Below, piece by piece: positions 3 to 12,501 of a DNA stretch of 64,000 nucleotides (the first letter of the stretch is position 1; each line of letters begins with the position of its first letter). A model generated the notes under the pieces. That model was not told the DNA's origin. It worked only from the letters and a program-made list of their open reading frames with translations, and searched no databases. Position numbers and translations under genes: made by a program. Source of the stretch: a bacterium (GTDB taxonomy: Bacteria > Hinthialibacterota > Hinthialibacteria > Hinthialibacterales > Hinthialibacteraceae); contig CAXXMV010000001.1 of NCBI GenBank assembly GCA_963662285.2, forward strand, positions 672,001-736,000. The letters run 5' to 3'.

Positions 3-1118
3 ATCCTCAACTTCAGAGATATATACCCGCAGACGGAAACATTTGTCTTGGATATCAACTATCGCTCAACGCCCCAGATCATTGAAGCCTGTCAAACTCT
101 GATTCAGTTCAACACCCGCAAGATCGATAAACAGGTGCAAGCCCATAATACTGATGGTGATGCGGTTATTACTTTGGATTGTTCCAGTGAAGAAGATGAA
201 GCCTTACAGATCGTCAATGAGATAAGAGACTTGGTTGGTCGAAAGGGATACCATTATTCTGATATGGCGGTTTTGTATCGCGCCAACTATCTCAGCCGTA
301 CCATAGAAGAGATATTCTCACAATACAAGATTCCATACGCCATTGAAAACGGGATGAATTTCTATCAACGCCGCGAAGTTAAATGGTTGTTGGATTACAT
401 GAGAGTGATTAGCGCTCCAGATTCATGTGAAGGAGACGAAGCGTTACGCAGTATCATCAACATACCCAATCGTTACATCGGCAAGAAATTCGTGCAGGAA
501 TTGGAGCAATATGCATCTGAACAAGGCATCCATTTGTATGAAGCGTTGAAGACCATAACGATAGACGCCCCATATCTACGTCGTAATGTCAGGGAATTGG
601 TTCGCTTGCTTGATCCGTTAGTGGCAGAATCAGAATTCATTGAGCCAGCAGAACTGATTCACATTCTGCGTGAGGTACTCGATTATGACCGCTTTGTCGC
701 TGATGACGAGATTCCCAGCCCGGATGACGCCAAGATCGATAACCTCAATCAGTTGAAATTATCCGCCGCCAAGTTCGATGATGTAAAGAGTTTTCTGCAA
801 TATACCGAGACTTTTCAGGATAAAACGGTTGGTTCTGATCAAGAGGGTGTTCAGTTAATGAGCATCCACAAAAGTAAAGGCATGGAATTTTCCGTCGTAT
901 TCGTCATTGGCTTAATTCAGGGAATCCTACCATCCCACAGAGAAGGCGATATCGAAGAAGAACGTCGCATCTGCTTTGTAGGCATATCCCGCGCCATGCA
1001 ACTATTGTATCTCAGCACCTGCCAGGTTCATCTTGGTCAACCCGCCGTCAAGTCCGTATTTATGGATGAGATCGTTGGGAATCAAGAAAACTGCCATACC
1101 TCTTCACAGCAAGATTAG
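3..1118 (+). CDS. UvrD/PcrA-family SF1 helicase, C-terminal part (5' end outside window)
   Basis: NYRS, AVLYRAN, MSIHKSKGMEF and EERRICFVGISRA motifs; frame is open upstream of 48 to the window edge (ILNFRDIYPQTETFVL). Confidence 0.92.
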   Translation: MLNFRDIYPQTETFVLDINYRSTPQIIEACQTLIQFNTRKIDKQVQAHNTDGDAVITLDCSSEEDEALQIVNEIRDLVGRKGYHYSDMAVLYRANYLSRTIEEIFSQYKIPYAIENGMNFYQRREVKWLLDYMRVISAPDSCEGDEALRSIINIPNRYIGKKFVQELEQYASEQGIHLYEALKTITIDAPYLRRNVRELVRLLDPLVAESEFIEPAELIHILREVLDYDRFVADDEIPSPDDAKIDNLNQLKLSAAKFDDVKSFLQYTETFQDKTVGSDQEGVQLMSIHKSKGMEFSVVFVIGLIQGILPSHREGDIEEERRICFVGISRAMQLLYLSTCQVHLGQPAVKSVFMDEIVGNQENCHTSSQQD

Positions 1119-1172
1119 AGCGAAGCATTACACCCAAAACCAAATACAATTTCAAAATCATAGGAGAATAAT

Positions 1173-2102
1173 ATGTCTCAAGTAACCACATTAGGAGAAT
1201 TACGTGCGCAAGTCGAAAAGAAATCCCTGAACCATTGGGATGATTATATTCCAGTGAAGGATATTCAGTTCGTTGGATTACAGAAAAACATTATCCAAGG
1301 TGACGAGCATCTAATGAGACCAGCGGCGCAACGGGCGATCTGTAACCGGTTGGGAATACCAATTCAGTATTTACAGAAATGCGAGCCGTTATTGCAAGCA
1401 GTTAACCTGAACGAATGGCTACCCAAAGAACGCAATGATAATCTGTTTGTGAGATTCGACGGCAATGATATCAGGGCTATATTCACACCGCGTTACAAGC
1501 CAATCGATAACCTGCAAGTGTTGGATCGCTTATACGAACAGGGATACAACGATGATAATAAGATTCAATGCTCATTAGATGATGAGTTCTTTATGCTCAA
1601 TATCCCCGACAAAGAAAAATCCTTTCAAGTCCGGCATGGCGACCGAATGGAACCGGGGATCAGTATCGGAAACAGCGAAGTCGGTATGTCATCACTAACC
1701 ATTGCAGCATTTGTGCTCCGGCTTATATGCACCAACGGTTTGATCTCCACAACTAGCGTTGAATCTTCATACCGGCATGTATCACATCGTATTCTGAGCG
1801 AGTTCCCGCAGGTGCTCAATCAGGTAAGCATGGATCTCAACCGGCAGCGTAACCAATGGGAAATTTCCGCCGATAGCCACGTCGATAATCCAGAAGGCAC
1901 GCTTCGCTCATTCAATAGACAATACAATCTGGATAAGCAAGAAACCGAAGCAGTTGATTGGGCATGGAGTCAAGAATCAGGCGAAACCATGTTTGATATC
2001 GTGAACACATACACCAAAGCCGCGCAGCATCCCCAGTTACCAGCCGAAAGCGAATATCAGTTACAAAAAGTAGGAGGCAATATTCTGGCGATGATAAACT
2101 GA
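1173..2102 (+). CDS. DUF932-like mobile-element protein
   Basis: RY.PIDN, GISIGNSEVG and RLICTNGL motifs typical of DUF932-like phage/plasmid proteins; AGGAGA RBS. Confidence 0.7.
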   Translation: MSQVTTLGELRAQVEKKSLNHWDDYIPVKDIQFVGLQKNIIQGDEHLMRPAAQRAICNRLGIPIQYLQKCEPLLQAVNLNEWLPKERNDNLFVRFDGNDIRAIFTPRYKPIDNLQVLDRLYEQGYNDDNKIQCSLDDEFFMLNIPDKEKSFQVRHGDRMEPGISIGNSEVGMSSLTIAAFVLRLICTNGLISTTSVESSYRHVSHRILSEFPQVLNQVSMDLNRQRNQWEISADSHVDNPEGTLRSFNRQYNLDKQETEAVDWAWSQESGETMFDIVNTYTKAAQHPQLPAESEYQLQKVGGNILAMIN

Positions 2103-2198
2103 GAGCATTTCAAGTCTCCCAGGAAACATGAAATATCAGCCCCAAAAGAACCAGAATTCAAAAAACCGAAATTTAACAAACTAGAAACGAGGTGATAC

Positions 2199-2534
2199 AT
2201 GTCGAAAACCACTGCCCTGATTGATGAGATACGAGATGATTTGCAAAGGTTACAAGCGCTGTCCAATGAAATGAAAGTCAAATACCGTGAACTGGCCGCC
2301 ACACTATTAAGCGCCCGCGCATTGGTTCCAGAAAATCGCTGGGAAGCATGGGTATCAGCCAACCTGGAATTGGATGTATCAGTCGTCGAATCGGTGATGG
2401 AATGCGATATACCAGCGCTAGGCATCAACTCGCTGATGCTGCCATTAACTTTCGATGAAGTACAGCAAGCGTCAGAAAGTTCCAAGCCTAATGGAAGCCG
2501 GATTCACAACAGAAAATCTAAGAAAAAAGTTTGA
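2199..2534 (+). CDS. Hypothetical protein
   Basis: 111-aa ORF with GAGGTG RBS, co-oriented with upstream genes and followed by a terminator. Confidence 0.7.
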   Translation: MSKTTALIDEIRDDLQRLQALSNEMKVKYRELAATLLSARALVPENRWEAWVSANLELDVSVVESVMECDIPALGINSLMLPLTFDEVQQASESSKPNGSRIHNRKSKKKV

Positions 2535-2564
2535 TGCGTTGAAATGAATATTGATTTGCGATTG

Positions 2565-2590
2565 ACTCCATGAATTGTGGAGTTTTTTTT
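2565..2590 (+). terminator. Intrinsic terminator
   Basis: ACTCCA-TGAATTG-TGGAGT stem followed by a T run. Confidence 0.7.
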
Positions 2591-2619
2591 GTTGCATGAT
2601 GATACCTATGAATATGAAA

Positions 2620-2940
2620 TCAATCTGAACTATTTATAATCGCGTCGGGGATTGTGTATGGGAGTAGTACGGTATCTGCGGCGAAACTGAGTGGTAGATC
2701 AATTAATAGAAGCGGCAAAACTATGGGTGATGGTTTGTTTTCCTTATCGCTGGCGATCTCGCCCATTGTGCTTGCGTCGAAGCGTACTCCTGCATAGATT
2801 TTGTTATCAGGGGGATTCGGGAGTGGCGTGAAGCCTTCACCTACCGTCATCCCCATTAACGTGCCGATGCAGCCGGTTTGCATGAAAAGTACAAATGCCA
2901 TCAATGAGGCTGATAAAAAATGTTTGATTGATTTATACAT
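2620..2940 (-). CDS. YceK/YidQ-family small lipoprotein
   Basis: Lipobox-like TGC; IYAGVRFD and IDLPLSFAADTVLLPY motifs. Confidence 0.8.
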   Translation of the reverse strand: MYKSIKHFLSASLMAFVLFMQTGCIGTLMGMTVGEGFTPLPNPPDNKIYAGVRFDASTMGEIASDKENKPSPIVLPLLLIDLPLSFAADTVLLPYTIPDAIINSSD

Positions 2941-3100
2941 ATCAAGATTCTCCTAGATCAAAATATTTTATATAAATATCAATTCAAATTAGGATTGACA
3001 AATCTTTCATAATACAACGTCATCCAAAAAAAGAACGAGCGCCGCGCTTTCGCGTATTCGAGCAGATATTTCATGCTTTAACCGCTGGTTGATGTATTTT

Positions 3101-3198
3101 TGTCTGAATCAGGATTTGCTGGATTAAAGGATGTACTTGATAAAAGCCCAAACCAACATCCTGAGTATCCTTCTATCATGGGTATCCAGATTCAGACA
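3101..3198. repeat. Full-length copy of intergenic repeat family A (TGTCTGAATC...GATTCAGACA terminal inverted repeat)
   Basis: 10-bp perfect terminal IR extended by GGAT/ATCC units; one-armed copies at ~27233, 29436, 30657, 41779 and 62355. Confidence 0.75.
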
Positions 3199-3351: not shown

Positions 3352-3470
3352 GAGTACTGCACAAACGAAAACCCCTGTTGTTTTTCCTGTTGTTGGGGTT
3401 GTTCCTGTTACGATTTGCAGAACGGCAGTTCCTGGTGTTGTTGTTCCAGCTGCCGCCCCGAAGAACCCTG
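3352..3470 (-). repeat. DGR template repeat (TR)
   Basis: 119-bp ungapped match to 4990-5108; AAC-rich on minus strand (reads [39 protein letters not shown]); 24 mismatches at TR adenines. Confidence 0.97.
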
Positions 3471-4541
3471 AGCGTCCATCCCTTCTACTCGTTGGAAAAC
3501 CAACGGGCCTATTACTTTTTCCCGCAACCGCCAACTATCTGCATGAGATACATGAGCAATCCAACTCATAATTCGTTGTTTTGCATCGTTTAAGTTTACT
3601 TCTTCATTGCTATACGCTTTTTGCAATTCTCTGAATCTGCTTCTGGCTTTCTGTACATTGCCAGAGACAACGCGAACATAATTTTGAAATACCCTGTATC
3701 CCAAGAATGTTATACCTTTGGAAACTGAGAAAATTTGGCTCTTGATTGGATGGATAATCAATCGGTTATGCTCTAGAAATCTTTCAATTTGAATACGCCA
3801 TTCTTGTAATTGTTCTTTGGAATCAGATAAAAGTACGAAATCATCCACATATCGTAAATAAGTCTCACATTTCAATGTTTCAATTACAAAATGGTCAAAT
3901 GGATTCAAGAAAATATTGGCGAAATGCTGGCTGGTCAAATTACCGATGGGAATGCCGCGACGGCGTTCGATATGAGTAAAAAGGTCGTCACTTGGGAAAT
4001 ACTCCACGATTTCTTCTTGAGGATTACTGGCGTCAATGATGGTATCCAGGAGCCAAAGTGTATTGGGACACTTGATCTTTTTTCGCAATAATCCTTTGAG
4101 AATTGCATGATCTATGCTGGGAAAATATTTTCGGATATCTGCTTTGAAAACATAGTTATATCTTTTGGCATAATACTTTAGGGCTTGTATGGCCCGATGC
4201 GTTCCATACCCGTTTCGGTTAGCGAAGGTTTTGTTCGTGTATGTGTTTTCAAATATGGGCATCACTATTTGGCAAACCGCGTGATGGATCACTCTATCCC
4301 GGTAAGGCGCGGCGGAAATGTAACGTCTTTTGGTATCGAATACTTCAAAGCAGGTATAATCCCCAGGCCAATACGAATGATTTAGAAGTTCTTGCTGAAG
4401 TTTCATAAGATTCTTTTCCAAATCGTAGTTAAAGCGAAGCACTTGGTCATGATACCGCTTACCCCGTTGAGCGTTTTTTGCGGCGCGAACCAGGTTATCC
4501 CAGGTTACGATTTGAGAGAACAAGTTACTATGTCTTTTCAT
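3408..4541 (-). CDS. DGR reverse transcriptase
   Basis: [33 protein letters not shown] (DGR-type SQ motif), YLRYVDD and FLGY; 377 aa with no maturase or endonuclease extension. Confidence 0.97.
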
Positions 4542-4885
4542 GCTGACCTTCCCTGTTGCCGCAGCCAGCCGCCCAGCATGGAGCCGATTTCATTCATATT
4601 GACGCTGGCGAATTCGTATTGGCGGTTGCTGAAAATATTGAAATCTTTGAGAAGGCGGGTTTGAAATCGAATGACCTCCAAATCCACGTTCAGTTTTCGT
4701 AATATTTCGTTCCGTGCGCGACTATACCTTGCCTGGATAAGGCCTTCCAATAGACCATAAAGCAACGATGTCATCCTATTTCCCAAACCAAAGCGGTGAT
4801 CCCGCGGCATGCGGTTTAGATGGGGTATATACCATAGAATCAAATCGTAAGTTTTTTGTATGATGGGCAGTTCTTTTTCGCTCAT
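4538..4885 (-). CDS. avd: DGR accessory variability determinant Avd (four-helix bundle)
   Basis: 115 aa; ELPIIQKTYDL, PRDHRFGLG and EIGSMLGGW motifs; stop overlaps RT start (ATGA). Confidence 0.93.
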   Translation of the reverse strand: MSEKELPIIQKTYDLILWYIPHLNRMPRDHRFGLGNRMTSLLYGLLEGLIQARYSRARNEILRKLNVDLEVIRFQTRLLKDFNIFSNRQYEFASVNMNEIGSMLGGWLRQQGRSA

Positions 4886-4913
4886 TCTTATATACTCCCA
4901 AAAAAAATCGCGT

Positions 4914-4926
4914 CGGGCTTCGCCCG
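4914..4926 (-). promoter_or_regulatory. DGR target-recognition hairpin candidate (CGGGC-GAA-GCCCG)
   Basis: GC stem with a GAA triloop about 60 bp downstream of the VR stop codon, as expected for DGR homing hairpins. Confidence 0.65.
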
Positions 4927-4984
4927 CATTTTAAAATGGAAAAAATTTAAATGGCAAATGGTAAAATAGTAATATACCAAATGG

Positions 4985-7525
4985 CTACTGAGTCCTGCAC
5001 AAACGAAAACCCCCGCCGTCCCTCCCGCTGCCGGGGACGCTCCCGCAACGATTCGCAGAACGGCAGACCCAGGTGACGTAGTACCAGCTGCCGCCCCGAA
5101 GAACCCTGTACGAGCCAGAACTTGCACCTTCAGGATCATTGTTTGGAGAATTGGCATAATAATTGCTATCATACCAATCATTACACCACTCCCACACATT
5201 GCCGCTCATATCAAACAGACCAAATTCATTTGGTAATTTCGTTCCGACTTCATGGGTCTTTGATCCCGAATTGCTAGTATACCAGGCATAATCGCCAATA
5301 TTTCCATTTTCCCAATAATAATCTGTCGTTGTTCCTGCCCGGCAAGCGTATTCCCATTCAGCTTCTGTTGGCAAGCGAAAAGTCCCATATCCCATCTCAT
5401 TCAGTTTTTGAATAAAGGTCTGGCAATCATTCCAGGAAACTTGTTCTACTGGATGGTTGTCTCCACTGAAACGTGATGGATTGCTCCCCATCACCGCCTG
5501 CCACTGCGCTTGGGTCACCTCATACATCCCCATATAGAAATCTTTAGAGATTGTAACCTCATGAATCGGTTTTTCATCTGAATCACCAGAATTACTACCC
5601 ATATCGAAAGTACCCGCCGGGATTTTAACCATAACCAGTTCCTTCGCCCCGGCGGGGAGAGTTAGGGAAATGGTTTCAGTTTCTTTGTTTTCTGCTGATT
5701 TCAGAACTTCCTGCACCGCATAATAGGCGGATTTGGCATTGTAATTGTCATCGAATAGCAATGGAGTTCCCCAGCCGGGATAGGTTTCGGGAATCCAGGT
5801 ATACTTGTCTGTGAATCCCCACATGATTAATCCCGTACAATTATCCGCTAATAGACAAGCATCTAATATGCTGGCATAGATATTCGCTTGCTCGTCTAGC
5901 ATTGCTTGCGTTGCGGGCTGCTTCAGGCTGACATCCAGTTCTGTAATCTGGCATTCCACACCAATCTCTGCAAAACGATTCATATAAGCGATTAAATCAA
6001 CGGATGATGGCACTGGGGCAGGAGCATGGATTCCAGTGGATGGATCAGACGCATTGACGCCTAGATGCATTTGCAGCCCGACGCCGTCAATGGGAACGCC
6101 ATTTTCTTTGAGCGCTTTCACCAGATCATAGATTCGTTCCGATTTATCCCCCAAACCTTCCGGATCGTAATCGTTGTAGAACAGTTTAATGTCAGCACCG
6201 ATGTTTGATGCGGCTACGTAAGCATACTCAAAGGCCAACTCGACATATTCAGCACCAATCTTATCTGCCCAGAACGAATTTACACTGTTATCGTCTACTT
6301 TAGAACTTAGCCTAATAACAGGATTATCCACGTAATCTAACGCCAAATCTCCTTGATCGGGCACAGCCTCGTTTACCACATCCCAAATGATAACGCGTCC
6401 GGGAAAGTTATCAGCGAAGTGTGTGACGACCGTCTCAATATAACCATGGAGAAGAGCAATTGCATCGACCTTATCTAATTCAACCTGATGTTTCTCAAGC
6501 CACGATGGAAGATTGTTGTATTTCGGGTTGTGCCAAACCAGGGCATGGCCCCGCACATGCATGTCATTGGCGGCGGCGAACTCGACGATTGAGTCTGCAT
6601 CTCCCCAGTTGTAGTCTGAGGCAGTGATGTTTTCCCAGTTAATGTTTGGGTTATACAACAGCGCGTCCATCTTCATCTCATTTTCAGGGGTGATGATGTT
6701 AAACTCACGCGCCAGCGTAGCCTTGTAGTTCTGGTCGTTCCATGGGGTGTTTTGGATAGTTCCGTTACTGTTCCAGGTATTCATACGGATTGAAGAGCCT
6801 ATTTTGAAGTTGGCTTTGTCAGCGTAGGTGCGCAATCTTTCACCATCAGGCTCTATAACTAAAATTGAAGAATTATTCTCATCGGGAACTATACTAATTG
6901 TATTTGGATCATCCCCATCGCCATCCAAAAACGCGCCGTCGTAATATCTACCTGATTCGAGGAGATAGACGTCAAAGTTATCGATGTAAAAAGTTACCGT
7001 TCTACCGCTGTTTTCAGGATTGTGAAGCTGGATGAACGGATCGAATCCCAATCCCGGTGGAACAAACAAAACAGAAACCTGTCTCCATTTGTTGTGAAAT
7101 TCAGATAAACCCGCCGGGCTGTTGGTGGGCACATCGATAGAACCGCTTTTCCCAATCGCCCCTATCGTGATAGAGCCTTCAGTGCCGTCCATTCTTACAT
7201 TGCAGCGAATCAGGGCAGCGTTGATTGCGTTAAACGATTTATTAAAAATCATAACGCCTTCGCCCGGATCGGCGGTGACGCGAACCCCAATCCCATCCGT
7301 AGCGCTCTCGAATGAGTTGTTCGTGGGTATTGTCACGCCAAACTGAACATCGGCTAAAGGTAAAGCGCCAAAACCAGCGCCTTGTATTGTTATGCCATTG
7401 GCTGCTGCGGATTTACCAGCAAAATCAATACGTATAGGATCATCCTGGGCATAGATAGTCTGACATAATATAATACTAATAAATACATATAACACATTCA
7501 CGAATAAATTCTTCATAATAATCAC
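4985..7525 (-). CDS. DGR target: secreted protein with N-terminal unknown domain, GH10 (endo-1,4-beta-xylanase-like) domain and C-terminal FGE-sulfatase/CLec domain
   Basis: Signal peptide; GH10 motifs TPENEMK, RGHALVWH, WDVVNE, YNDY, GLQMH, ITELD; FGE-like motifs F.MGS, EVTQAQW, RLPTEAEWEYACRAG, DMSGNVWEW, RGGSW...GFR. Confidence 0.93.
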   Translation of the reverse strand: MIIMKNLFVNVLYVFISIILCQTIYAQDDPIRIDFAGKSAAANGITIQGAGFGALPLADVQFGVTIPTNNSFESATDGIGVRVTADPGEGVMIFNKSFNAINAALIRCNVRMDGTEGSITIGAIGKSGSIDVPTNSPAGLSEFHNKWRQVSVLFVPPGLGFDPFIQLHNPENSGRTVTFYIDNFDVYLLESGRYYDGAFLDGDGDDPNTISIVPDENNSSILVIEPDGERLRTYADKANFKIGSSIRMNTWNSNGTIQNTPWNDQNYKATLAREFNIITPENEMKMDALLYNPNINWENITASDYNWGDADSIVEFAAANDMHVRGHALVWHNPKYNNLPSWLEKHQVELDKVDAIALLHGYIETVVTHFADNFPGRVIIWDVVNEAVPDQGDLALDYVDNPVIRLSSKVDDNSVNSFWADKIGAEYVELAFEYAYVAASNIGADIKLFYNDYDPEGLGDKSERIYDLVKALKENGVPIDGVGLQMHLGVNASDPSTGIHAPAPVPSSVDLIAYMNRFAEIGVECQITELDVSLKQPATQAMLDEQANIYASILDACLLADNCTGLIMWGFTDKYTWIPETYPGWGTPLLFDDNYNAKSAYYAVQEVLKSAENKETETISLTLPAGAKELVMVKIPAGTFDMGSNSGDSDEKPIHEVTISKDFYMGMYEVTQAQWQAVMGSNPSRFSGDNHPVEQVSWNDCQTFIQKLNEMGYGTFRLPTEAEWEYACRAGTTTDYYWENGNIGDYAWYTSNSGSKTHEVGTKLPNEFGLFDMSGNVWEWCNDWYDSNYYANSPNNDPEGASSGSYRVLRGGSWYYVTWVCRSANRCGSVPGSGRDGGGFRLCRTQ
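4990..5108 (-). repeat. DGR variable repeat (VR) with IMH at 3' end of target gene
   Basis: Encodes [39 protein letters not shown]; differs from TR at 24 adenines plus one non-A site (4994) near the 3' end. Confidence 0.97.
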
Positions 7526-7643
7526 CTTTTTGAGATAATTTATAAACGCCTAACAAATTAGATCGTATTTGAACTGTATAATCAAGTGTGCTCCTTATTT
7601 TTGCGCTTGAGTGGATAATAATTCGATTTATCCAAAATCAATT

Positions 7644-7967
7644 TCACAGCAACCCTTTTACCCACATAATACAATTTTCAACGATTCCAAAGGTGGCAAG
7701 GATGATTGGTTTGACTTGTTCATTCCGCATTGCATATTCAAGCGCCCACAATGTTAGAATCGAATAAATGATTGTTAGAATCTTTATGATCAGTATTTCT
7801 TCCACTATGCGGCGGCATTTGGCGCGGAAGGGCAGTTCACGGAAGGTTGCTTTTCGGCGGCGGGGCCGAGGGATGAATACAATTTCCCCATACTGGTTAA
7901 CCTCATAGTCTCCCCGGCGATCATTGGTCGGCATGGTTCCAAGAGGACTTTGATACAATCGAGCCAT
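7644..7967 (-). CDS. Small membrane protein, last gene of E2-JAB-E1 operon
   Basis: GGAGA RBS, 18 bp after E1 stop; N-terminal DYEVNQYGEI, basic stretch and 1-2 hydrophobic segments. Confidence 0.75.
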   Translation of the reverse strand: MARLYQSPLGTMPTNDRRGDYEVNQYGEIVFIPRPRRRKATFRELPFRAKCRRIVEEILIIKILTIIYSILTLWALEYAMRNEQVKPIILATFGIVENCIMWVKGLL

Positions 7968-7985: not shown

Positions 7986-9191
7986 TTAAAAGACTGTTTC
8001 GTGAGGCTTTAATGAATCCCATATACATTCTGGATCATCATCGGGTATTTCATCACATAGCATGGCAGGTTCCGAGTATTCAGGATTTCGCTTATTCTGG
8101 CAGATATCACAATTTGATCGCGGCCCGACAAAGCGCGTAGGGAAAATATCAAACGGTTTCTGAAAAGGATCATGGCCTTTGCAAAACGCTCCGCCAACAA
8201 ACCAAAAACAGCGGTCAGGATTTACAATCTGTGCATAGGCATCGTTGTGATTGCGCAAAAGAACGCCCAAGGCTATCTGGGCTTCCAGACTGGACACAAA
8301 GTTGACGGCTGCGTGCAAACCCGGCTGACCTTCATAATCGTCCCGGCCAGTTGCAGTACTATAATCAATGGGACCGCGTTTCTGTTGGACGACTACGCCT
8401 CCACCTTTTAAGCAACATAGGCAGGGCGTTTCCCATTCGGGAACATAAGCGAAGACCTCGCCGCCGATAGCATTTTCATAACAACCACCAAACACGGCGG
8501 GTGTTCGATGGTTTACCGCCCATTCATTGACCATAAGTTGAACAGCCAATATATCGGTGGATGCGATAACCAGACTGGATTGGGTAAACAAATCGTACAT
8601 AAACGTATCTGAATCGTCTTGAAAGATATCCCGTGGATAGCATTGAACCTGAGCATTGGGGTGAATATCCATAATCCGGTCTTTCACAACGGAGACTTTG
8701 TTGCGTCCAAGATCGCTGAATCCCCCTTCATGCCGCGAGAGGTTGGAGGCTTCCATCGTATCAGGATCAATCAAGATAAAATTCCCAACTCCAGCACGTG
8801 CCAATTCCAGGGCCAGGTAACTACCGCCAGTTCCACAACCGAAGATGGTTACAGTGGAATGTTGTAGAGTCTTCAGGCACGCAGGATCGAAGGGAGTCCG
8901 CGCAAACACATCATGATCTTCAATTACCTCAACCTGTGTGAGTGAAAGATGATTCTGACTCCAAATGAAAACCTTGGGCTGCGATGAGTGTGCGAAGACA
9001 AATAACCAGGGAGACTGGGGAGGCGTTGGAATTGCCTCTCCCCGGTGCAAGACCTGTCCAATTACAGATCGGTCGTGCGTCATTTCAGGAGCGCAGATAT
9101 GAGCCGTGTTTTCCTCTTCACGGATAACGCCATGAATCTTCATACCCGGTTTTAACTGCGACAGTGCGTGAGACGAAATAAACACTCTCAT
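7986..9191 (-). CDS. ThiF/E1-like adenylyltransferase with N-terminal extension
   Basis: IFGCGTGGS, LARAGVG, IDPDTMEASNLSRH and GRNKV motifs; CLCC and CDIC zinc pairs. Confidence 0.92.
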   Translation of the reverse strand: MRVFISSHALSQLKPGMKIHGVIREEENTAHICAPEMTHDRSVIGQVLHRGEAIPTPPQSPWLFVFAHSSQPKVFIWSQNHLSLTQVEVIEDHDVFARTPFDPACLKTLQHSTVTIFGCGTGGSYLALELARAGVGNFILIDPDTMEASNLSRHEGGFSDLGRNKVSVVKDRIMDIHPNAQVQCYPRDIFQDDSDTFMYDLFTQSSLVIASTDILAVQLMVNEWAVNHRTPAVFGGCYENAIGGEVFAYVPEWETPCLCCLKGGGVVVQQKRGPIDYSTATGRDDYEGQPGLHAAVNFVSSLEAQIALGVLLRNHNDAYAQIVNPDRCFWFVGGAFCKGHDPFQKPFDIFPTRFVGPRSNCDICQNKRNPEYSEPAMLCDEIPDDDPECIWDSLKPHETVF

Positions 9192-9197
9192 GATAAT

Positions 9198-10094
9198 TCA
9201 CCCATATTGGACGAGCGCTGATAGGGATTTTCTCATCCGACTATACTGCTGAATCGCTTTAGCTATCGATTCTCCCACTTGACGCTGCATTGGAATAAAA
9301 CGGTTACGCCACGCTCCATAACTTAATTCGATTAACAATTCTTTCGGCTTACTTTTATCAGATAAAACGTAAGCATAATGCTCTGCGCCCCGCTTTGCAT
9401 ACAACGCTGCATATTTGGCTTTGCCCGAATAAAAGACTGTTGTTTCAAAGCCATGAGCATTCATCTCTGATGTTTCGTCATCAATGAAATGTTGGAATGT
9501 AGAATGTATATCTTCTGGTATGGCAAATACATTTGATACAGAACAGGGTGTGGATGATTCGATTTTAAGTGATTGCGCAATATCTTTATGGGTGTCTTCG
9601 ACCCAGTGCAATTGCAAAGGATCGAAACCAGTCAGGTCTTTGCGCAATTCATAGGCGCAAATCCGCCATCCCTGTTTCCCCTTTTTATGATTCATTGTTA
9701 CTATGAATGACAAGAGGGGGCCAATTGAAAGATCCCAGCCGTCTTTTTGCACCATACGCACGGCTTGACGTAGATCGCCCTTGCTGGGCGTATGAAAGGA
9801 GCCTGGGTGTTTATGCCAGTATCCCAGTACATGAACCCTGTTCTGATGATGCCATTTGATGATATTGAGCAGCAGTTGATCGAATTCTGCATCGTTTGAA
9901 CAATGGATAATATCAAGATCCGAATTCGGACCAGCAGGAAAGGCATAGAGCAGCGCTGGATCAGAGCAAGTTCCAACCAGCAAACCGACGGTCTCCTGGT
10001 TGAGGTTTTTGTTGCATTCCGATTCGATGACGGCGAGACAAGACCAGGATGCAGGCATCACTTTGGCGAACAAAGGAATCGAGAGAATATTCAA
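9198..10094 (-). CDS. JAB/JAMM (Mov34/MPN) metallopeptidase with C-terminal extra domain
   Basis: ETVGLLVG and WHKHPGSFHTPSKGD match the E...HxHx7Sx2D JAMM motif. Confidence 0.88.
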   Translation of the reverse strand: MNILSIPLFAKVMPASWSCLAVIESECNKNLNQETVGLLVGTCSDPALLYAFPAGPNSDLDIIHCSNDAEFDQLLLNIIKWHHQNRVHVLGYWHKHPGSFHTPSKGDLRQAVRMVQKDGWDLSIGPLLSFIVTMNHKKGKQGWRICAYELRKDLTGFDPLQLHWVEDTHKDIAQSLKIESSTPCSVSNVFAIPEDIHSTFQHFIDDETSEMNAHGFETTVFYSGKAKYAALYAKRGAEHYAYVLSDKSKPKELLIELSYGAWRNRFIPMQRQVGESIAKAIQQYSRMRKSLSALVQYG

Positions 10095-10097
10095 CGA

Positions 10098-10529
10098 TCA
10101 AGCCCTCCTTCGCAGCAGAGGGTTGGATGATTCCCGCTGATTTTCCCATTTGTTGCCATCTGGCCAATGTTTGGTTCGGCGATACTCCTCATACGACCGT
10201 ATCCATCCACAAGCCCAATCGAGAATCACTTTACCGGACGTTTGAGGCCCAACATCATCAACCCCCCACAAACACAAACGACCATCGCCAAACATGTGGG
10301 GAGCAGGATTGATGCGGGGCGATGTAATGACAACTTCGGGGTGATCGTAGGGAAAACGGTCGGGATAATACATCATTATATTGTACAGTTTCCCTTTCCA
10401 GCGGAATTTCAGATAGACCTCTATCCTCCCTTTGCGTTGAGATATGCGGGTATTGGGATAGACCTTGTTGATTAAATTGGTTTCAAGCCGTAAACGTTCA
10501 GGCAGACGTATATACCAAGGTTTCATCAC
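10098..10529 (-). CDS. Prokaryotic E2 (UBC-fold)-like protein
   Basis: RLRLE helix, YPDRFPYDHPEV and PHMFGDGRLCL (His plus presumptive catalytic Cys, UBC-like spacing); AGGAGGTG RBS. Confidence 0.82.
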   Translation of the reverse strand: MMKPWYIRLPERLRLETNLINKVYPNTRISQRKGRIEVYLKFRWKGKLYNIMMYYPDRFPYDHPEVVITSPRINPAPHMFGDGRLCLWGVDDVGPQTSGKVILDWACGWIRSYEEYRRTKHWPDGNKWENQRESSNPLLRRRA

Positions 10530-10596: not shown

Positions 10597-10764
10597 TTAA
10601 TGCCAGGTCGTTTTCTTCACATCATCCCGCTGATCCTGCTTATCCAGGTTAATAGTGACAACCTCTCGATCCTGAGGCGACATGTCCCGTCCCAGTAAAG
10701 GGCGTGGTTCCGGAGCGTCGTGGCTTTCTTCTTCGAAATTGGGGGTATTGGGCTGATCAGGCAT
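10597..10764 (-). CDS. Unannotated 55-aa acidic peptide heading the E2-JAB-E1 operon (MPDQPNTPNFEEESHDAPEPRPLLGRDMSPQDREVVTINLDKQDQRDDVKKTTWH)
   Basis: Translated by hand; AAGGAGA RBS 6 nt before ATG; not listed in the ORF track. Confidence 0.75.
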   Translation of the reverse strand: MPDQPNTPNFEEESHDAPEPRPLLGRDMSPQDREVVTINLDKQDQRDDVKKTTWH

Positions 10765-10932
10765 AGTATTTCTCCTTCTATTTTTAAAGTATGATTAAAA
10801 AAAGACAAAACTATCCCTCAGAAGTGATTTATATTTACATAAACCACTCAAAACAATATGGTTATAGATAGAAATAAGGATGGGAAACTTAAAGGATGGC
10901 TCCCGAAGGCAAGGGCATAGAAGATCAATCGC

Positions 10933-10981: not shown

Positions 10982-11404
10982 GCGCTTTTTTCATTTTTTT
11001 ACACTAAAAGATTTGGTGGAATTCTAAGAAGCAACCGTAGAGCTAAAGATGCCGCGATTATCTGACTCCTGAGCTGAGCAAGGAGCAACCAGCACCAATG
11101 ACCACGCAAAGATAACGTATAACAGAAGCATTAATTGAATAGAGCCACGCTGAACCATGATTTCACCCGCATTTCGGAATAGCCAAAATAAATCGAATGA
11201 TAGGATTATCTCAAAAAACAGAAGAAGAGTCTACTTGAGAGAGAGATTTCAACATAAACAGCGGATAATATTTGATTTGCAGACTATTATATTTGTTATG
11301 GGCTGTGGAGGGTGCAATGAGTTATAACCTGACTTGATCCATCACTCCAATTACGATGCGAACGGCGCTTCTATTTTGAAATCGTGCAACGACCGTGCAA
11401 TACA

Positions 11405-11805: not shown

Positions 11806-12501
11806 ATGCAATTAAATGTCCAAGAGGTTTCACAATTGCTAAACGTATCAGATAAAACGATTTATCGATGGGTTAGCCAGGGTGAAATACCCGCATACAA
11901 ATTCAAGGATCAATATCGTTTCAACGAAGCTGAGATTCTTGAATGGGCGATTATCAGGAAAATCAATATTTCCACCAATTTATTAGACGCATCGGAAACG
12001 AAGAATATCGTAACGCCGAAACTCTCCGAGGTTTTGCAGAATGGCGGTATTTTTTATCGTCTGGAGGGCAATGATTCCAGTGCGGCGATCAGTTCATTGA
12101 TCAAATCTTTACCAATTCTCGATGCACCGGTGCGTCAATTTTTGTTGGAAAGTTACATAGCGCGTGAATCTCTTAATTCGACGGCTGTGGGTGACGGGAT
12201 CGCCATCCCCCATTCGCGGGTTCGCGTGGTGCCTTATATCGTACGCCCGATGGCAGCCTTAGGATTTCTTGAAAACCCGGTTGATTTTAAGGCCCTGGAT
12301 GGTCAGCCTGTCCAGATATTGTTCACTGTCTTAAGTCCCAATTTGCGGGATCATCTGCGCATTCTTTCCCGCTTCATGTTGGCATTAAACGATCCAGAAT
12401 TCCGGGAAGCTCTACGAAAACAGGAATTGCGTGAAACGATTTTGAACCATTGCCGCCGTATTGATGAAAGTTCTACCCCTTCAAAGAATCCTAATCCGTA
12501 A
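11806..12501 (+). CDS. Excisionase-type HTH fused to PTS EIIA(Ntr/Fru)-like domain
   Basis: LNVSDKTIYRWV...IPAYK HTH; RESLNSTAVGDGIAIPH phospho-His motif. Confidence 0.9.
   Translation: MQLNVQEVSQLLNVSDKTIYRWVSQGEIPAYKFKDQYRFNEAEILEWAIIRKINISTNLLDASETKNIVTPKLSEVLQNGGIFYRLEGNDSSAAISSLIKSLPILDAPVRQFLLESYIARESLNSTAVGDGIAIPHSRVRVVPYIVRPMAALGFLENPVDFKALDGQPVQILFTVLSPNLRDHLRILSRFMLALNDPEFREALRKQELRETILNHCRRIDESSTPSKNPNP

What the first reader, a model, noticed from the sequence alone, without database searches (positions are those of the whole stretch)
10597..10764. Hidden 55-aa peptide ending VKKTTWH as candidate modifier or substrate
Seen: not in the ORF track, but it has a good AAGGAGA RBS and is the first gene after the promoter. 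It is rich in D/E/P/Q/N, probably disordered, and ends in Trp-His with no Gly near the C-terminus. Known: ThiF-family enzymes can adenylate non-Gly peptide C-termini (MccB), and disordered tags exist (Pup, which uses a different ligase). Inference: E1 activates this C-terminus, perhaps after JAB trimming, and passes it to the E2 cysteine.
Basis: partly seen in the sequence, partly recalled or inferred. Interest (0 to 1): 0.8.

Follow-up and report, generated by a model that had tools for sequence, protein, structure and literature searches.

The report
Conserved small peptide heading E2–JAB–E1 operon
A real, conserved 55-residue disordered peptide sits where ubiquitin-like proteins sit in bacterial ubiquitination-type operons, so it may be a new, non-ubiquitin-fold tag, though this is not yet shown.

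Summary
The ORF exists as described: window 10597-10764, minus strand, 55 aa, AAGGAGA six bases before the ATG, acidic and Pro-rich, ending KKTTWH, with its only Gly at residue 25.

It is a real gene. Five distinct sequences are known, in two genomes of different families and three metagenome contigs. All end in the invariant motif DQRDDVKKTTWH. Between the two genomes these last 12 codons carry 8 synonymous and 0 non-synonymous changes.

It heads a conserved five-gene cassette: peptide, E2 (catalytic Cys), JAB peptidase (intact JAMM motif), ThiF-type E1, small membrane protein. The enzymes resemble split Cap2 and Cap3 of type II CBASS. The gene order is that of Bil operons (Ubl-E2-DUB-E1). 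No cyclase or beta-grasp protein is present.

The peptide matches no Pfam, NCBIfam or PADLOC family and gives no confident fold.

Best reading (about 0.45): it is the cascade's own substrate or tag, activated at its invariant C-terminus. This rests on context, conservation and a weak E1-binding prediction (median score 0.32, controls 0.00). Nothing shows the chemistry.

Rivals: a non-covalent regulator, JAB cleavage at RPLLG, a ribosome-arrest leader, or RiPP-type chemistry.

It is a new variant of a known kind and moderately to highly interesting.

The parts
10597..10764 (-). 55-aa peptide gene (stop included). N-terminal half is variable and acidic. RPL[LI]G[RH]DM lies at residues 21-28. The invariant C-terminal motif DQRDDVKKTTWH lies at residues 44-55.
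10771..10777 (-). Shine-Dalgarno AAGGAGA, six bases before the ATG
   Evidence: G020 has GGAGGT at the equivalent place.
10098..10526 (-). E2 (UBC-like), 142 aa from the ATG that follows AGGAGGTG. Invariant H77 and catalytic-type C85 in PHMFGDGRLCL.
   Evidence: PADLOC CBASS 'E2' models down to 2.7e-11. Pfam UQ_con is below its cut-off. Alignment A2. PDB E2 hits at 5e-5.
9198..10094 (-). JAB/JAMM peptidase, 298 aa, with a C-terminal extension of about 140 aa. E34 and H94-x-H96-x7-S104-x2-D107 are conserved.
   Evidence: Pfam Prok-JAB 28 bits, above its cut-off of 25. PADLOC JAB models. Alignment A6.
7986..9191 (-). ThiF/MoeB-type E1, 401 aa: an all-beta N-terminal domain (1-95), one adenylation domain, and CxxC...CxxC.
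   Evidence: Pfam ThiF 1.6e-34. PADLOC 'E1-E2' 5.5e-29. Alignment A3. AF2 model pLDDT 82. Foldseek top hits ThiF, MoeB, UBA5, MccB.
7644..7967 (-). 107-aa protein with hydrophobic C-terminal segments and a conserved N-terminal motif YE[VI]NQYGEIV. Last gene of the cassette; possible effector, anchor or target.
   Evidence: No Pfam, PADLOC or NCBIfam family.

Best explanation
The 55-aa ORF is a genuine, translated small protein. It is the cassette's own substrate: a largely disordered, Pup-like tag that takes the place held by the ubiquitin-like protein in Bil operons and by the CD-NTase tail in type II CBASS.

Proposed steps, all inferred:
1. The conserved C-terminal third docks on the homodimeric ThiF-type E1.
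2. The E1 adenylates the terminal carboxylate (His55).
3. The acyl group passes, possibly through an E1 cysteine, to Cys85 of the E2.
4. It then passes to an amine on a target: a phage or host protein, the peptide's own invariant Lys50/Lys51, or the membrane protein.
5. The JAB peptidase reverses or edits the conjugates.

The cassette as a whole is most likely a mobile conflict or defence module.

Shown: the gene is real, conserved and syntenic; the enzymes have intact catalytic motifs; no other conserved C-terminus, beta-grasp protein or cyclase is present.

Not shown: any of the chemistry.
For: 1. Conservation. Five distinct peptides of 54-55 aa all end in DQRDDVKKTTWH, while the N-terminal half varies. 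The last 12 codons show 8 synonymous and 0 non-synonymous differences between window and G020.

2. Synteny. The same five genes lie in the same order in G000 and G020, which belong to different families of one order. The flanking genes differ. The peptide and this E2 were found in the same 2 of 35 genomes of the phylum.

3. Position. The order peptide-E2-JAB-E1 equals the Ubl-E2-DUB-E1 order of Bil operons (section 5 of 10.1101/2023.09.26.559546).

4. Enzyme type. E2, JAB and E1 score best against CBASS Cap2/Cap3-type PADLOC models. Cap2 acts on a disordered tail, not on a beta-grasp fold (passages).

5. Conserved C-terminus. It is the only cassette protein with one; the ends of E2, JAB, E1 and the membrane protein all differ between genomes. 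The tail is 12 of 12 identical, while the enzymes are 37-56% identical. This is the pattern expected of a modifier read by several enzymes.

6. No alternative substrate. 0 of 14 neighbouring ORFs match a cyclase. The only other cassette protein without an enzymatic assignment is the membrane protein.

7. Complex prediction, weak support. E1 x2 + ATP + Mg + peptide gave ipSAE 0.56, 0.32 and 0.28, median 0.32. The best of 3 controls was 0.00. In the tool's calibration the mark was reached by 58 of 80 solved complexes and 2 of 110 mismatched pairs. A score of 0.60 or under, however, was seen in only 7 of those 80 solved complexes and in both mismatches that passed. The runs agree in at least 36% of contacts, and the partner's pLDDT is at least 41. 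No contacts were given.

8. Fold. Predicted alone, the peptide has no confident fold: pLDDT 62.7, pTM 0.25, residues 1-24 coil, a low-confidence helix at 30-49.
Against: - Activation of a terminal His by a Cap2-type or ThiF-type E1 has no precedent that I found. Characterised tails end in Gly or Ala, and G436E abolishes V. cholerae CBASS defence (passages).
- The complex support is weak by the tool's own calibration. It comes without an interface, so nothing places His55 in the active site.
- Only five closely related peptides exist. A profile search of 1.84 billion representatives gave 2 hits at E <= 0.001.
- The genomic contexts of the roughly 60 further E1 homologues (36-55% identical) could not be fetched. 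It is therefore unknown whether a peptide gene accompanies the wider family.
- The distant operon in G113 has only a doubtful, dissimilar upstream ORF.
- No expression or proteomic data exist.
- The conservation pattern is also what a ribosome-arrest leader would show.
Confidence: 0.45

Rival explanations
1. The peptide is a non-covalent regulator or adaptor. It binds E1, E2, JAB or the membrane protein, as an inhibitor, an antitoxin-like brake or a decoy for a phage trigger. It is never conjugated itself.
For: Small, acidic, disordered proteins at the head of conflict operons are often regulators (general knowledge). The weak predicted E1 binding (median 0.32, controls 0.00, weak by calibration) fits binding without chemistry equally well. 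A terminal His is a poor fit to known E1 substrates.
Against: The cascade would then have no substrate encoded in the cassette. This is unlike type II CBASS, Bil and Bub, whose substrates are operon-encoded. Invariance up to the very last residue before the stop is typical of C-terminally activated proteins.
Confidence: 0.2
2. The peptide is a pro-peptide. The JAB cuts after the only glycine, within the conserved RPL[LI]G|[RH]DM, and exposes a Gly C-terminus. The acidic N-terminal 25-mer is then the tag, and the conserved C-terminal 30 residues act as a removable docking or inhibitory piece.
For: R21, P22, L23, G25, D27 and M28 are invariant in 5 of 5 sequences. Bil and Bub DUBs do pre-process their Ubls after a conserved Gly (passages). 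A terminal Gly is what known E1s accept.
Against: The supposed tag (residues 1-20) is the least conserved part. The discarded part would be the most conserved, invariant to the stop codon. Known pro-pieces are short: up to nine residues in type II BilA.
Confidence: 0.12
3. The ORF is a ribosome-arrest or leader peptide. The conserved last 35 or so residues act inside the exit tunnel. They stall the ribosome at or near the stop codon and so control expression of the downstream E2-JAB-E1 genes.
For: It is the first ORF of the operon. Conservation is confined to a C-terminal stretch of about tunnel length and runs up to the stop codon, which is TAA in both genomes. The N-terminus is variable. These are features of known arrest peptides (recalled, not tested).
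Against: The stretch from the ORF's 3' half to the E2 start shows no significant or shared RNA structure: z = -0.99 in the window and -0.72 in G020. The tail has no Pro-rich motif of the kind recalled for most arrest peptides. The cascade would again lack a substrate. The E1-binding prediction, though weak, exceeded all controls.
Confidence: 0.1
4. The ORF is a RiPP-like precursor. The ThiF-type enzyme modifies the C-terminus chemically, as MccB or PaaA do. The JAB removes a leader, and the membrane protein exports the product or gives immunity.
For: MccB and PaaA are among the solved relatives of the E1. The precursor is small and is followed by modifying enzymes and a membrane protein.
Against: An E2 with a catalytic cysteine has no role in known RiPP routes (recalled). 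ThiF and MoeB score better than MccB. The N-terminal domain is all-beta in the model, unlike the winged-helix peptide clamp recalled for MccB. A full-text search for papers with at least 5 of the 6 terms ubiquitin-conjugating, ThiF, JAB, precursor peptide, RiPP and bacteria found 1 paper, a natural-products review seen in the listing only.
Confidence: 0.05
5. The ORF is a chance ORF or a decayed remnant without function.
For: ORFs of this length are common by chance: 99 of at least 40 aa in 14 kb.
Against: The last 12 codons show 8 synonymous and 0 non-synonymous changes. An RBS is present in both genomes. There are five conserved sequences and conserved synteny.
Confidence: 0.02

Closest known systems
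Type II CBASS regulatory module (Cap2 E2-E1 fusion, Cap3 JAB; substrate is the disordered C-terminal tail of the CD-NTase)
   Same: E2, JAB and E1 score best against CBASS-derived PADLOC models. The E1 has a single ThiF-like adenylation domain of the homodimeric type. The substrate recognised by Cap2 is an extended, disordered, highly conserved C-terminus rather than a beta-grasp fold (passages).
   Different: E2 and E1 are separate genes here. No CD-NTase lies in or near the cassette. The candidate substrate is a free 55-aa peptide. It ends in Trp-His instead of Gly or Ala. A small membrane protein is the only possible effector.
Bil (BilABCD) bacterial ISG15-like ubiquitination operons
   Same: Identical gene order, modifier-E2-JAB-E1. 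The proteins are separate. The JAB can pre-process the modifier.
   Different: BilA is a beta-grasp Ubl with a conserved Gly, and this peptide is not. [quoted passage not shown]
Pup / UBact (prokaryotic ubiquitin-like protein)
   Same: Small, acidic and intrinsically disordered. The N-terminal half varies and the C-terminal part is conserved. A helix is predicted only at low confidence. The Pup properties are recalled.
   Different: Pup ends in Gly-Gly-Gln/Glu and is ligated by Dop/PafA, which are enzymes of the glutamine-synthetase fold (recalled). No such genes are in the cassette, and the peptide has no Pfam hit.
MccA/MccB (microcin C7)
   Same: A ThiF-family enzyme adenylates a non-Gly peptide C-terminus (recalled). 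MccB is among the structural relatives of the E1.
   Different: MccA is a heptapeptide ending in Asn (recalled). There is no E2 or JAB. The N-terminal domain is predicted all-beta.
6A-MBL anti-phage system (fused Cap2-Cap3 protein)
   Same: JAB and E1 give weak partial matches to NCBIfam NF058523: 23 and 63 bits.
   Different: The scores are far below the cut-off of 320 bits. The proteins are not fused, and no metallo-beta-lactamase gene is present.

Membership tests
Beta-grasp ubiquitin-like modifiers (Ub, ThiS/MoaD, BilA, BubA) | Beta-grasp fold | tested here: not met
   55 aa. The AF2 model has no strands, pLDDT 62.7 and pTM 0.25. No Pfam hit at E <= 1.
Beta-grasp ubiquitin-like modifiers (Ub, ThiS/MoaD, BilA, BubA) | C-terminal Gly (or Gly-Gly), at the end or a few residues before it | tested here: not met
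   Ends in Trp-His in 5 of 5 sequences. The only Gly is 30 residues from the end.
Beta-grasp ubiquitin-like modifiers (Ub, ThiS/MoaD, BilA, BubA) | Encoded next to its E1, E2 and DUB | tested here: met
   First gene of the peptide-E2-JAB-E1 cassette in two genomes.
Type II CBASS | CD-NTase (cyclase) gene in the operon | tested here: not met
   No cyclase among the 5 cassette proteins or among 14 neighbouring ORFs.
Type II CBASS | Cap2-like E1 and E2 plus Cap3-like JAB | tested here: met
   PADLOC: E2 2.7e-11, JAB 6.6e-9, E1-E2 5.5e-29. Here E2 and E1 are split into two genes.
Type II CBASS | Substrate tail ending in a small residue (Gly or Ala) | tested here: not met
   The peptide ends in His. 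The rule comes from passages of 10.1101/2022.03.31.486616.
Bil (BilABCD) | Gene order Ubl-E2-DUB-E1 | tested here: met
Bil (BilABCD) | [quoted passage not shown] | tested here: not met
   One ThiF match, residues 101-317 of 401. The model shows an N-terminal beta domain plus one adenylation domain.
Pup / UBact | C-terminal GGQ or GGE, with Dop/PafA ligase genes nearby | tested here: not met
   The tail is KKTTWH. The neighbours are E2, JAB and E1. No Pup family hit. The defining features are recalled.
MccA-type peptides (MccB substrates) | Heptapeptide ending in Asn, and an operon without E2 or JAB | tested here: not met
   55 aa ending in His. E2 and JAB are present. The defining features are recalled.
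Ribosome-arrest leader peptides | Translation stalls at a defined codon and controls the downstream gene | not testable with these tools
   Only indirect evidence: no significant RNA structure around the E2 ribosome-binding site.
E1-E2 cascade substrate (functional class) | ATP-dependent adenylation and thioester transfer of its C-terminus | not testable with these tools
   Only a weak complex prediction without contacts.

The most novel reading that the evidence does not exclude
This would be the first E1-E2 cascade whose modifier is not a beta-grasp protein and not the tail of an enzyme. Instead it is a free, intrinsically disordered 55-residue peptide, activated at a C-terminal histidine: a Pup-like tag handled by ubiquitin-type enzymes. 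It would belong to a rare mobile defence cassette that has a small membrane protein as its only other component.
Probability: 0.35. Interest if true: 0.85.

Novelty: new variant of a known kind. Interest (0 to 1): 0.62.

Why it matters
All characterised bacterial ubiquitination-type pathways move either a beta-grasp protein or the tail of a signalling enzyme, and they activate a terminal Gly or Ala. These pathways are type II CBASS, Bil and Bub.

A cassette in which the only candidate substrate is a disordered peptide ending in Trp-His would matter in three ways:
- It would widen what E1 and E2 enzymes can activate.
- It would suggest that the fold of the modifier is dispensable for the chemistry.
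- It would give a very small, portable tagging system.

Even if the peptide turns out to be a regulator or an arrest leader, it is a conserved, unannotated family tied to a new arrangement of Cap2/Cap3-like enzymes. The question can be tested directly with four small proteins and one peptide.

Tried and rejected
- **Family searches for the peptide.** Pfam, PADLOC and NCBIfam gave 0 families.
- **ESM Atlas.** The best feature scores were 0.81-0.83, below the tool's level for a lead.
- **Word-indexed protein search with the peptide.** 1 hit, 96% identical.
- **Viral contigs.** The peptide profile and the E1 alignment both gave 0 relatives.
- **Plasmids.** tblastn with E1 homologue P0019 gave only 2 partial ThiF hits in Bradyrhizobium.
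- **Metagenome scan with the E2 alignment.** One locus, L032. It starts inside the E2 gene, so no upstream sequence is available.
- **Genome-collection scan.** Only the G020 contig.
- **Genome searches.** 401 genomes searched with the E1 gave 4 matches at E <= 1e-30. These were the window's own genome, G020, and two distant ones.
  - G113 has an E2-JAB-E1-membrane-protein operon whose JAB is split over two frames. It has only a doubtful 71-aa upstream ORF with no similarity.
  - G249 carries a gene below its E1 whose product I read as a nucleotidyltransferase, which would make the locus CBASS-like. This was read by eye only and not scanned.
  - G113's phylum holds 12 genomes, and none of the others has the operon.
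- **G005 (same family as the window).** It has a different E2-E1-JAB operon without a similar peptide.
- **Contexts of the roughly 60 E1 homologues.** These could not be fetched.
- **PF26395.** This is the precomputed Pfam label of the E2 homologues. It is not in the local library and appears in no held paper.
- **RNA runs.** No RNA holder is listed for the stretch.
- **RNA folding between the peptide stop and the E2 start.** Not significant.
- **Literature.** Full-text searches found no paper describing a non-beta-grasp peptide as an E1-E2 substrate. Supplementary tables of the Bil, Bub and CBASS papers, which list operons, could not be seen and might contain this family.
- **Tail-only matches.** A match of DQRDDVKKTTWH at the end of a larger protein would fall below the reporting threshold, so it is not excluded.

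Full report
**1. Observation**

The ORF lies on the minus strand at window 10597-10764, stop codon included. It encodes MPDQPNTPNFEEESHDAPEPRPLLGRDMSPQDREVVTINLDKQDQRDDVKKTTWH. AAGGAGA sits at 10771-10777, six bases before the ATG. D, E, P, Q and N make up 27 of 55 residues, GRAVY is -1.57, and the only Gly is residue 25.

An ORF of this length is not remarkable on its own: 99 ORFs of at least 40 aa lie between 6 and 20 kb. The promoter is not established either, since promoter-like sites are at the chance level, 11 found against 9.6 +/- 2.7 in shuffles. The ORF falls below the usual 60-aa cut-off of an ORF list. Public pipelines have called it nonetheless: this exact sequence is in the protein collection from NCBI and ENA.

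**2. It is a real, conserved gene**

A word-indexed search found one 96% identical 55-mer, P0002. A search of 61 genomes with the neighbouring E2 found a 56% identical homologue in G020, which is in the same order but another family.

Upstream of that E2 lies an ORF ending in DERDQRDDVKKTTWH. Its Met29 is preceded by GGAGGT and gives a 54-aa product. An HMMER profile search over 1.84 billion cluster representatives found exactly two hits at E <= 0.001, P0006 (54 aa) and P0007 (55 aa).

All five sequences share the invariant residues R21, P22, L23, G25, D27 and M28 and an invariant tail at D44-H55. The first 20 residues vary. Between window and G020, the last 12 codons carry 8 synonymous and 0 non-synonymous differences, and both ORFs stop at TAA. 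This shows selection on the protein sequence.

Within the phylum, which holds 35 genomes, the peptide was found only in G000 and G020. These are the same two genomes that carry this E2.

**3. Surroundings**

Five genes lie on the minus strand.
- **Peptide**, 10764-10597.
- **E2**, 10526-10098. PADLOC CBASS 'E2' models score down to 2.7e-11. H77 and C85 in PHMFGDGRLCL are invariant.
- **JAB**, 10094-9198. Pfam Prok-JAB scores above its cut-off. E34 and H94-x-H96-x7-S104-x2-D107 are conserved.
- **E1**, 9191-7986. Pfam ThiF scores 1.6e-34 and PADLOC 'E1-E2' models 5.5e-29.
- **107-aa protein**, 7967-7644. It has hydrophobic C-terminal segments and a conserved motif YE[VI]NQYGEIV.

G020 has the same five genes in the same order, but its flanks are different. 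The window has a diversity-generating retroelement, DUF932 and UvrD next door. G020 has an IS200-type transposase, a weak sub-cut-off GmrSD_C-like match and a STAS protein. The cassette therefore moves as a unit.

No cyclase or other known defence sensor is present in the cassette or among 14 neighbouring ORFs.

The AF2 model of the E1 (pLDDT 82) shows an all-beta N-terminal domain at residues 1-95 and one adenylation domain. Its closest structures are ThiF, MoeB, UBA5 and MccB. By sequence it matches ThiF, MoeB, UBA5, MccB and Cap2.

The E1 belongs to a wider family of about 60 clusters at 36-55% identity, and the N-terminal domain is conserved across them. Their genomic contexts could not be fetched.

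**4. What the peptide is not**

It has no Pfam, PADLOC or NCBIfam family. Predicted alone it has no confident fold. pLDDT is 62.7 and pTM 0.25, residues 1-24 are coil, there is a low-confidence helix at 30-49, and there are no strands. It is therefore not a beta-grasp protein. It lacks the terminal Gly of Ubls and the GGQ/E of Pup (the Pup motif is recalled).

**5. Most likely mechanism**

In every characterised bacterial E1/E2 pathway the substrate is encoded in the operon.
- In type II CBASS it is the CD-NTase tail, which is disordered and highly conserved and is bound in the Cap2 adenylation site (passages).
- In Bil and Bub it is a beta-grasp Ubl (passages and section).
- The Bil gene order, Ubl-E2-DUB-E1, is the order found here, with the peptide in the Ubl's place.

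The peptide is also the only cassette protein with a conserved C-terminus. Its tail is 12 of 12 identical, while the enzymes are only 37-56% identical. That is the pattern expected of a modifier constrained by several partners.

A complex prediction of the E1 dimer, ATP, Mg and the peptide gave weak support.
- The runs scored 0.56, 0.32 and 0.28, median 0.32. The best of three controls was 0.00.
- By the tool's calibration the mark was reached by 58 of 80 solved complexes and 2 of 110 mismatched pairs.
- Scores of 0.60 or under were seen in only 7 of those 80 solved complexes and in both mismatches that passed.
- The runs agree in at least 36% of contacts, and the partner's pLDDT is at least 41.
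- No contacts were given.

I therefore favour, at about 0.45, that the peptide is the cascade's substrate or tag, activated at its own C-terminus. Every chemical step is inferred.

The main objection is the terminal His. Known Cap2 substrates end in Gly or Ala, and G436E abolishes V. cholerae CBASS defence.

**6. Rivals**

- **Non-covalent regulator or adaptor (0.2).** This fits the binding prediction equally well but leaves the cascade without a substrate.
- **JAB cleavage after Gly25 in RPLLG|RDM (0.12).** This would expose a Gly, as DUBs do for BilA and BubA. It would, however, throw away the most conserved part and keep the least conserved part.
- **Ribosome-arrest leader (0.1).** Conservation confined to a C-terminal stretch of about tunnel length and running up to the stop codon fits this. 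No significant or shared RNA structure links the ORF to the E2 ribosome-binding site, with z = -0.99 and -0.72.
- **RiPP-type chemistry (0.05).** This does not explain an E2 with a catalytic cysteine.
- **Chance ORF (0.02).** This is contradicted by the conservation data.

**7. Comparison and novelty**

The enzymes work like a split Cap2 plus Cap3. The layout is that of Bil. The candidate modifier resembles Pup in physical character. It fails defining features of each family:
- no cyclase and no terminal Gly or Ala (CBASS);
- no beta-grasp fold and no two-domain E1 (Bil);
- no GGQ/E tail and no Dop/PafA genes (Pup);
- not a heptapeptide ending in Asn (MccA).

Six full-text searches found no description of such a peptide. 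Supplementary operon tables were not visible. I rate it a new variant of a known kind.

**8. Limits**

- Only five closely related peptides are known, and DNA context is available for two of them.
- Equal contig lengths suggest that P0002, P0003 and P0008 share one 3854-base contig. This would be a third instance of synteny, inferred and not seen.
- No expression data exist.
- No interface was returned by the complex prediction.
- The wider E1 family could not be examined in its genomic context.

Noticed in passing
window 3352-7525: A diversity-generating retroelement lies directly downstream of the cassette. It has a reverse transcriptase (3408-4541, minus strand), a bAvd-like protein (4538-4885, minus strand) and a target gene (4985-7525, minus strand) encoding a GH10 xylanase fused to an FGE-type C-terminal domain. 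A 119-nt template/variable repeat pair at 3352-3470 and 4990-5108 is 79% identical.
   Followed up: partly
window 3-2102: A UvrD-type helicase C-terminal part matches GajB and DRT helicase models in PADLOC, followed by a DUF932 protein. This suggests a mobile or defence-rich neighbourhood.
   Followed up: no
window 11806-12501: A divergently placed regulator has an N-terminal HTH_17/MerR-like domain and a PTS EIIA-2 domain. Whether it controls the cassette is unknown.
   Followed up: no
L038 (G113:C1:3222000-3234000) 5180-7570: A distant operon (E1 30% identical) has the same order, E2-JAB-E1-small membrane protein. Its JAB reading frame is split in two. The only upstream candidate is a doubtful, dissimilar 71-aa ORF.
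   Followed up: partly
L006 (G005:C215) 1026-3131: A genome of the window's own family carries a different E2-E1-JAB operon. Its E2 is 220 aa with a 100-residue N-terminal extension, and the E2 domain is 34% identical. No similar peptide is present.
   Followed up: partly
window 7986-9191 and alignment A3: The E1 belongs to a family of about 60 protein clusters, mostly from metagenomes. They share a conserved N-terminal beta domain and the motif RTPF before the ThiF domain. The family's partners and substrates are unknown here.
   Followed up: partly
window 11024-11158: A 44-aa ORF upstream on the same strand has a signal-peptide-like hydrophobic core. It has no PADLOC family. I did not see it in the G020 ORF list by eye, and no formal comparison was made.
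   Followed up: no
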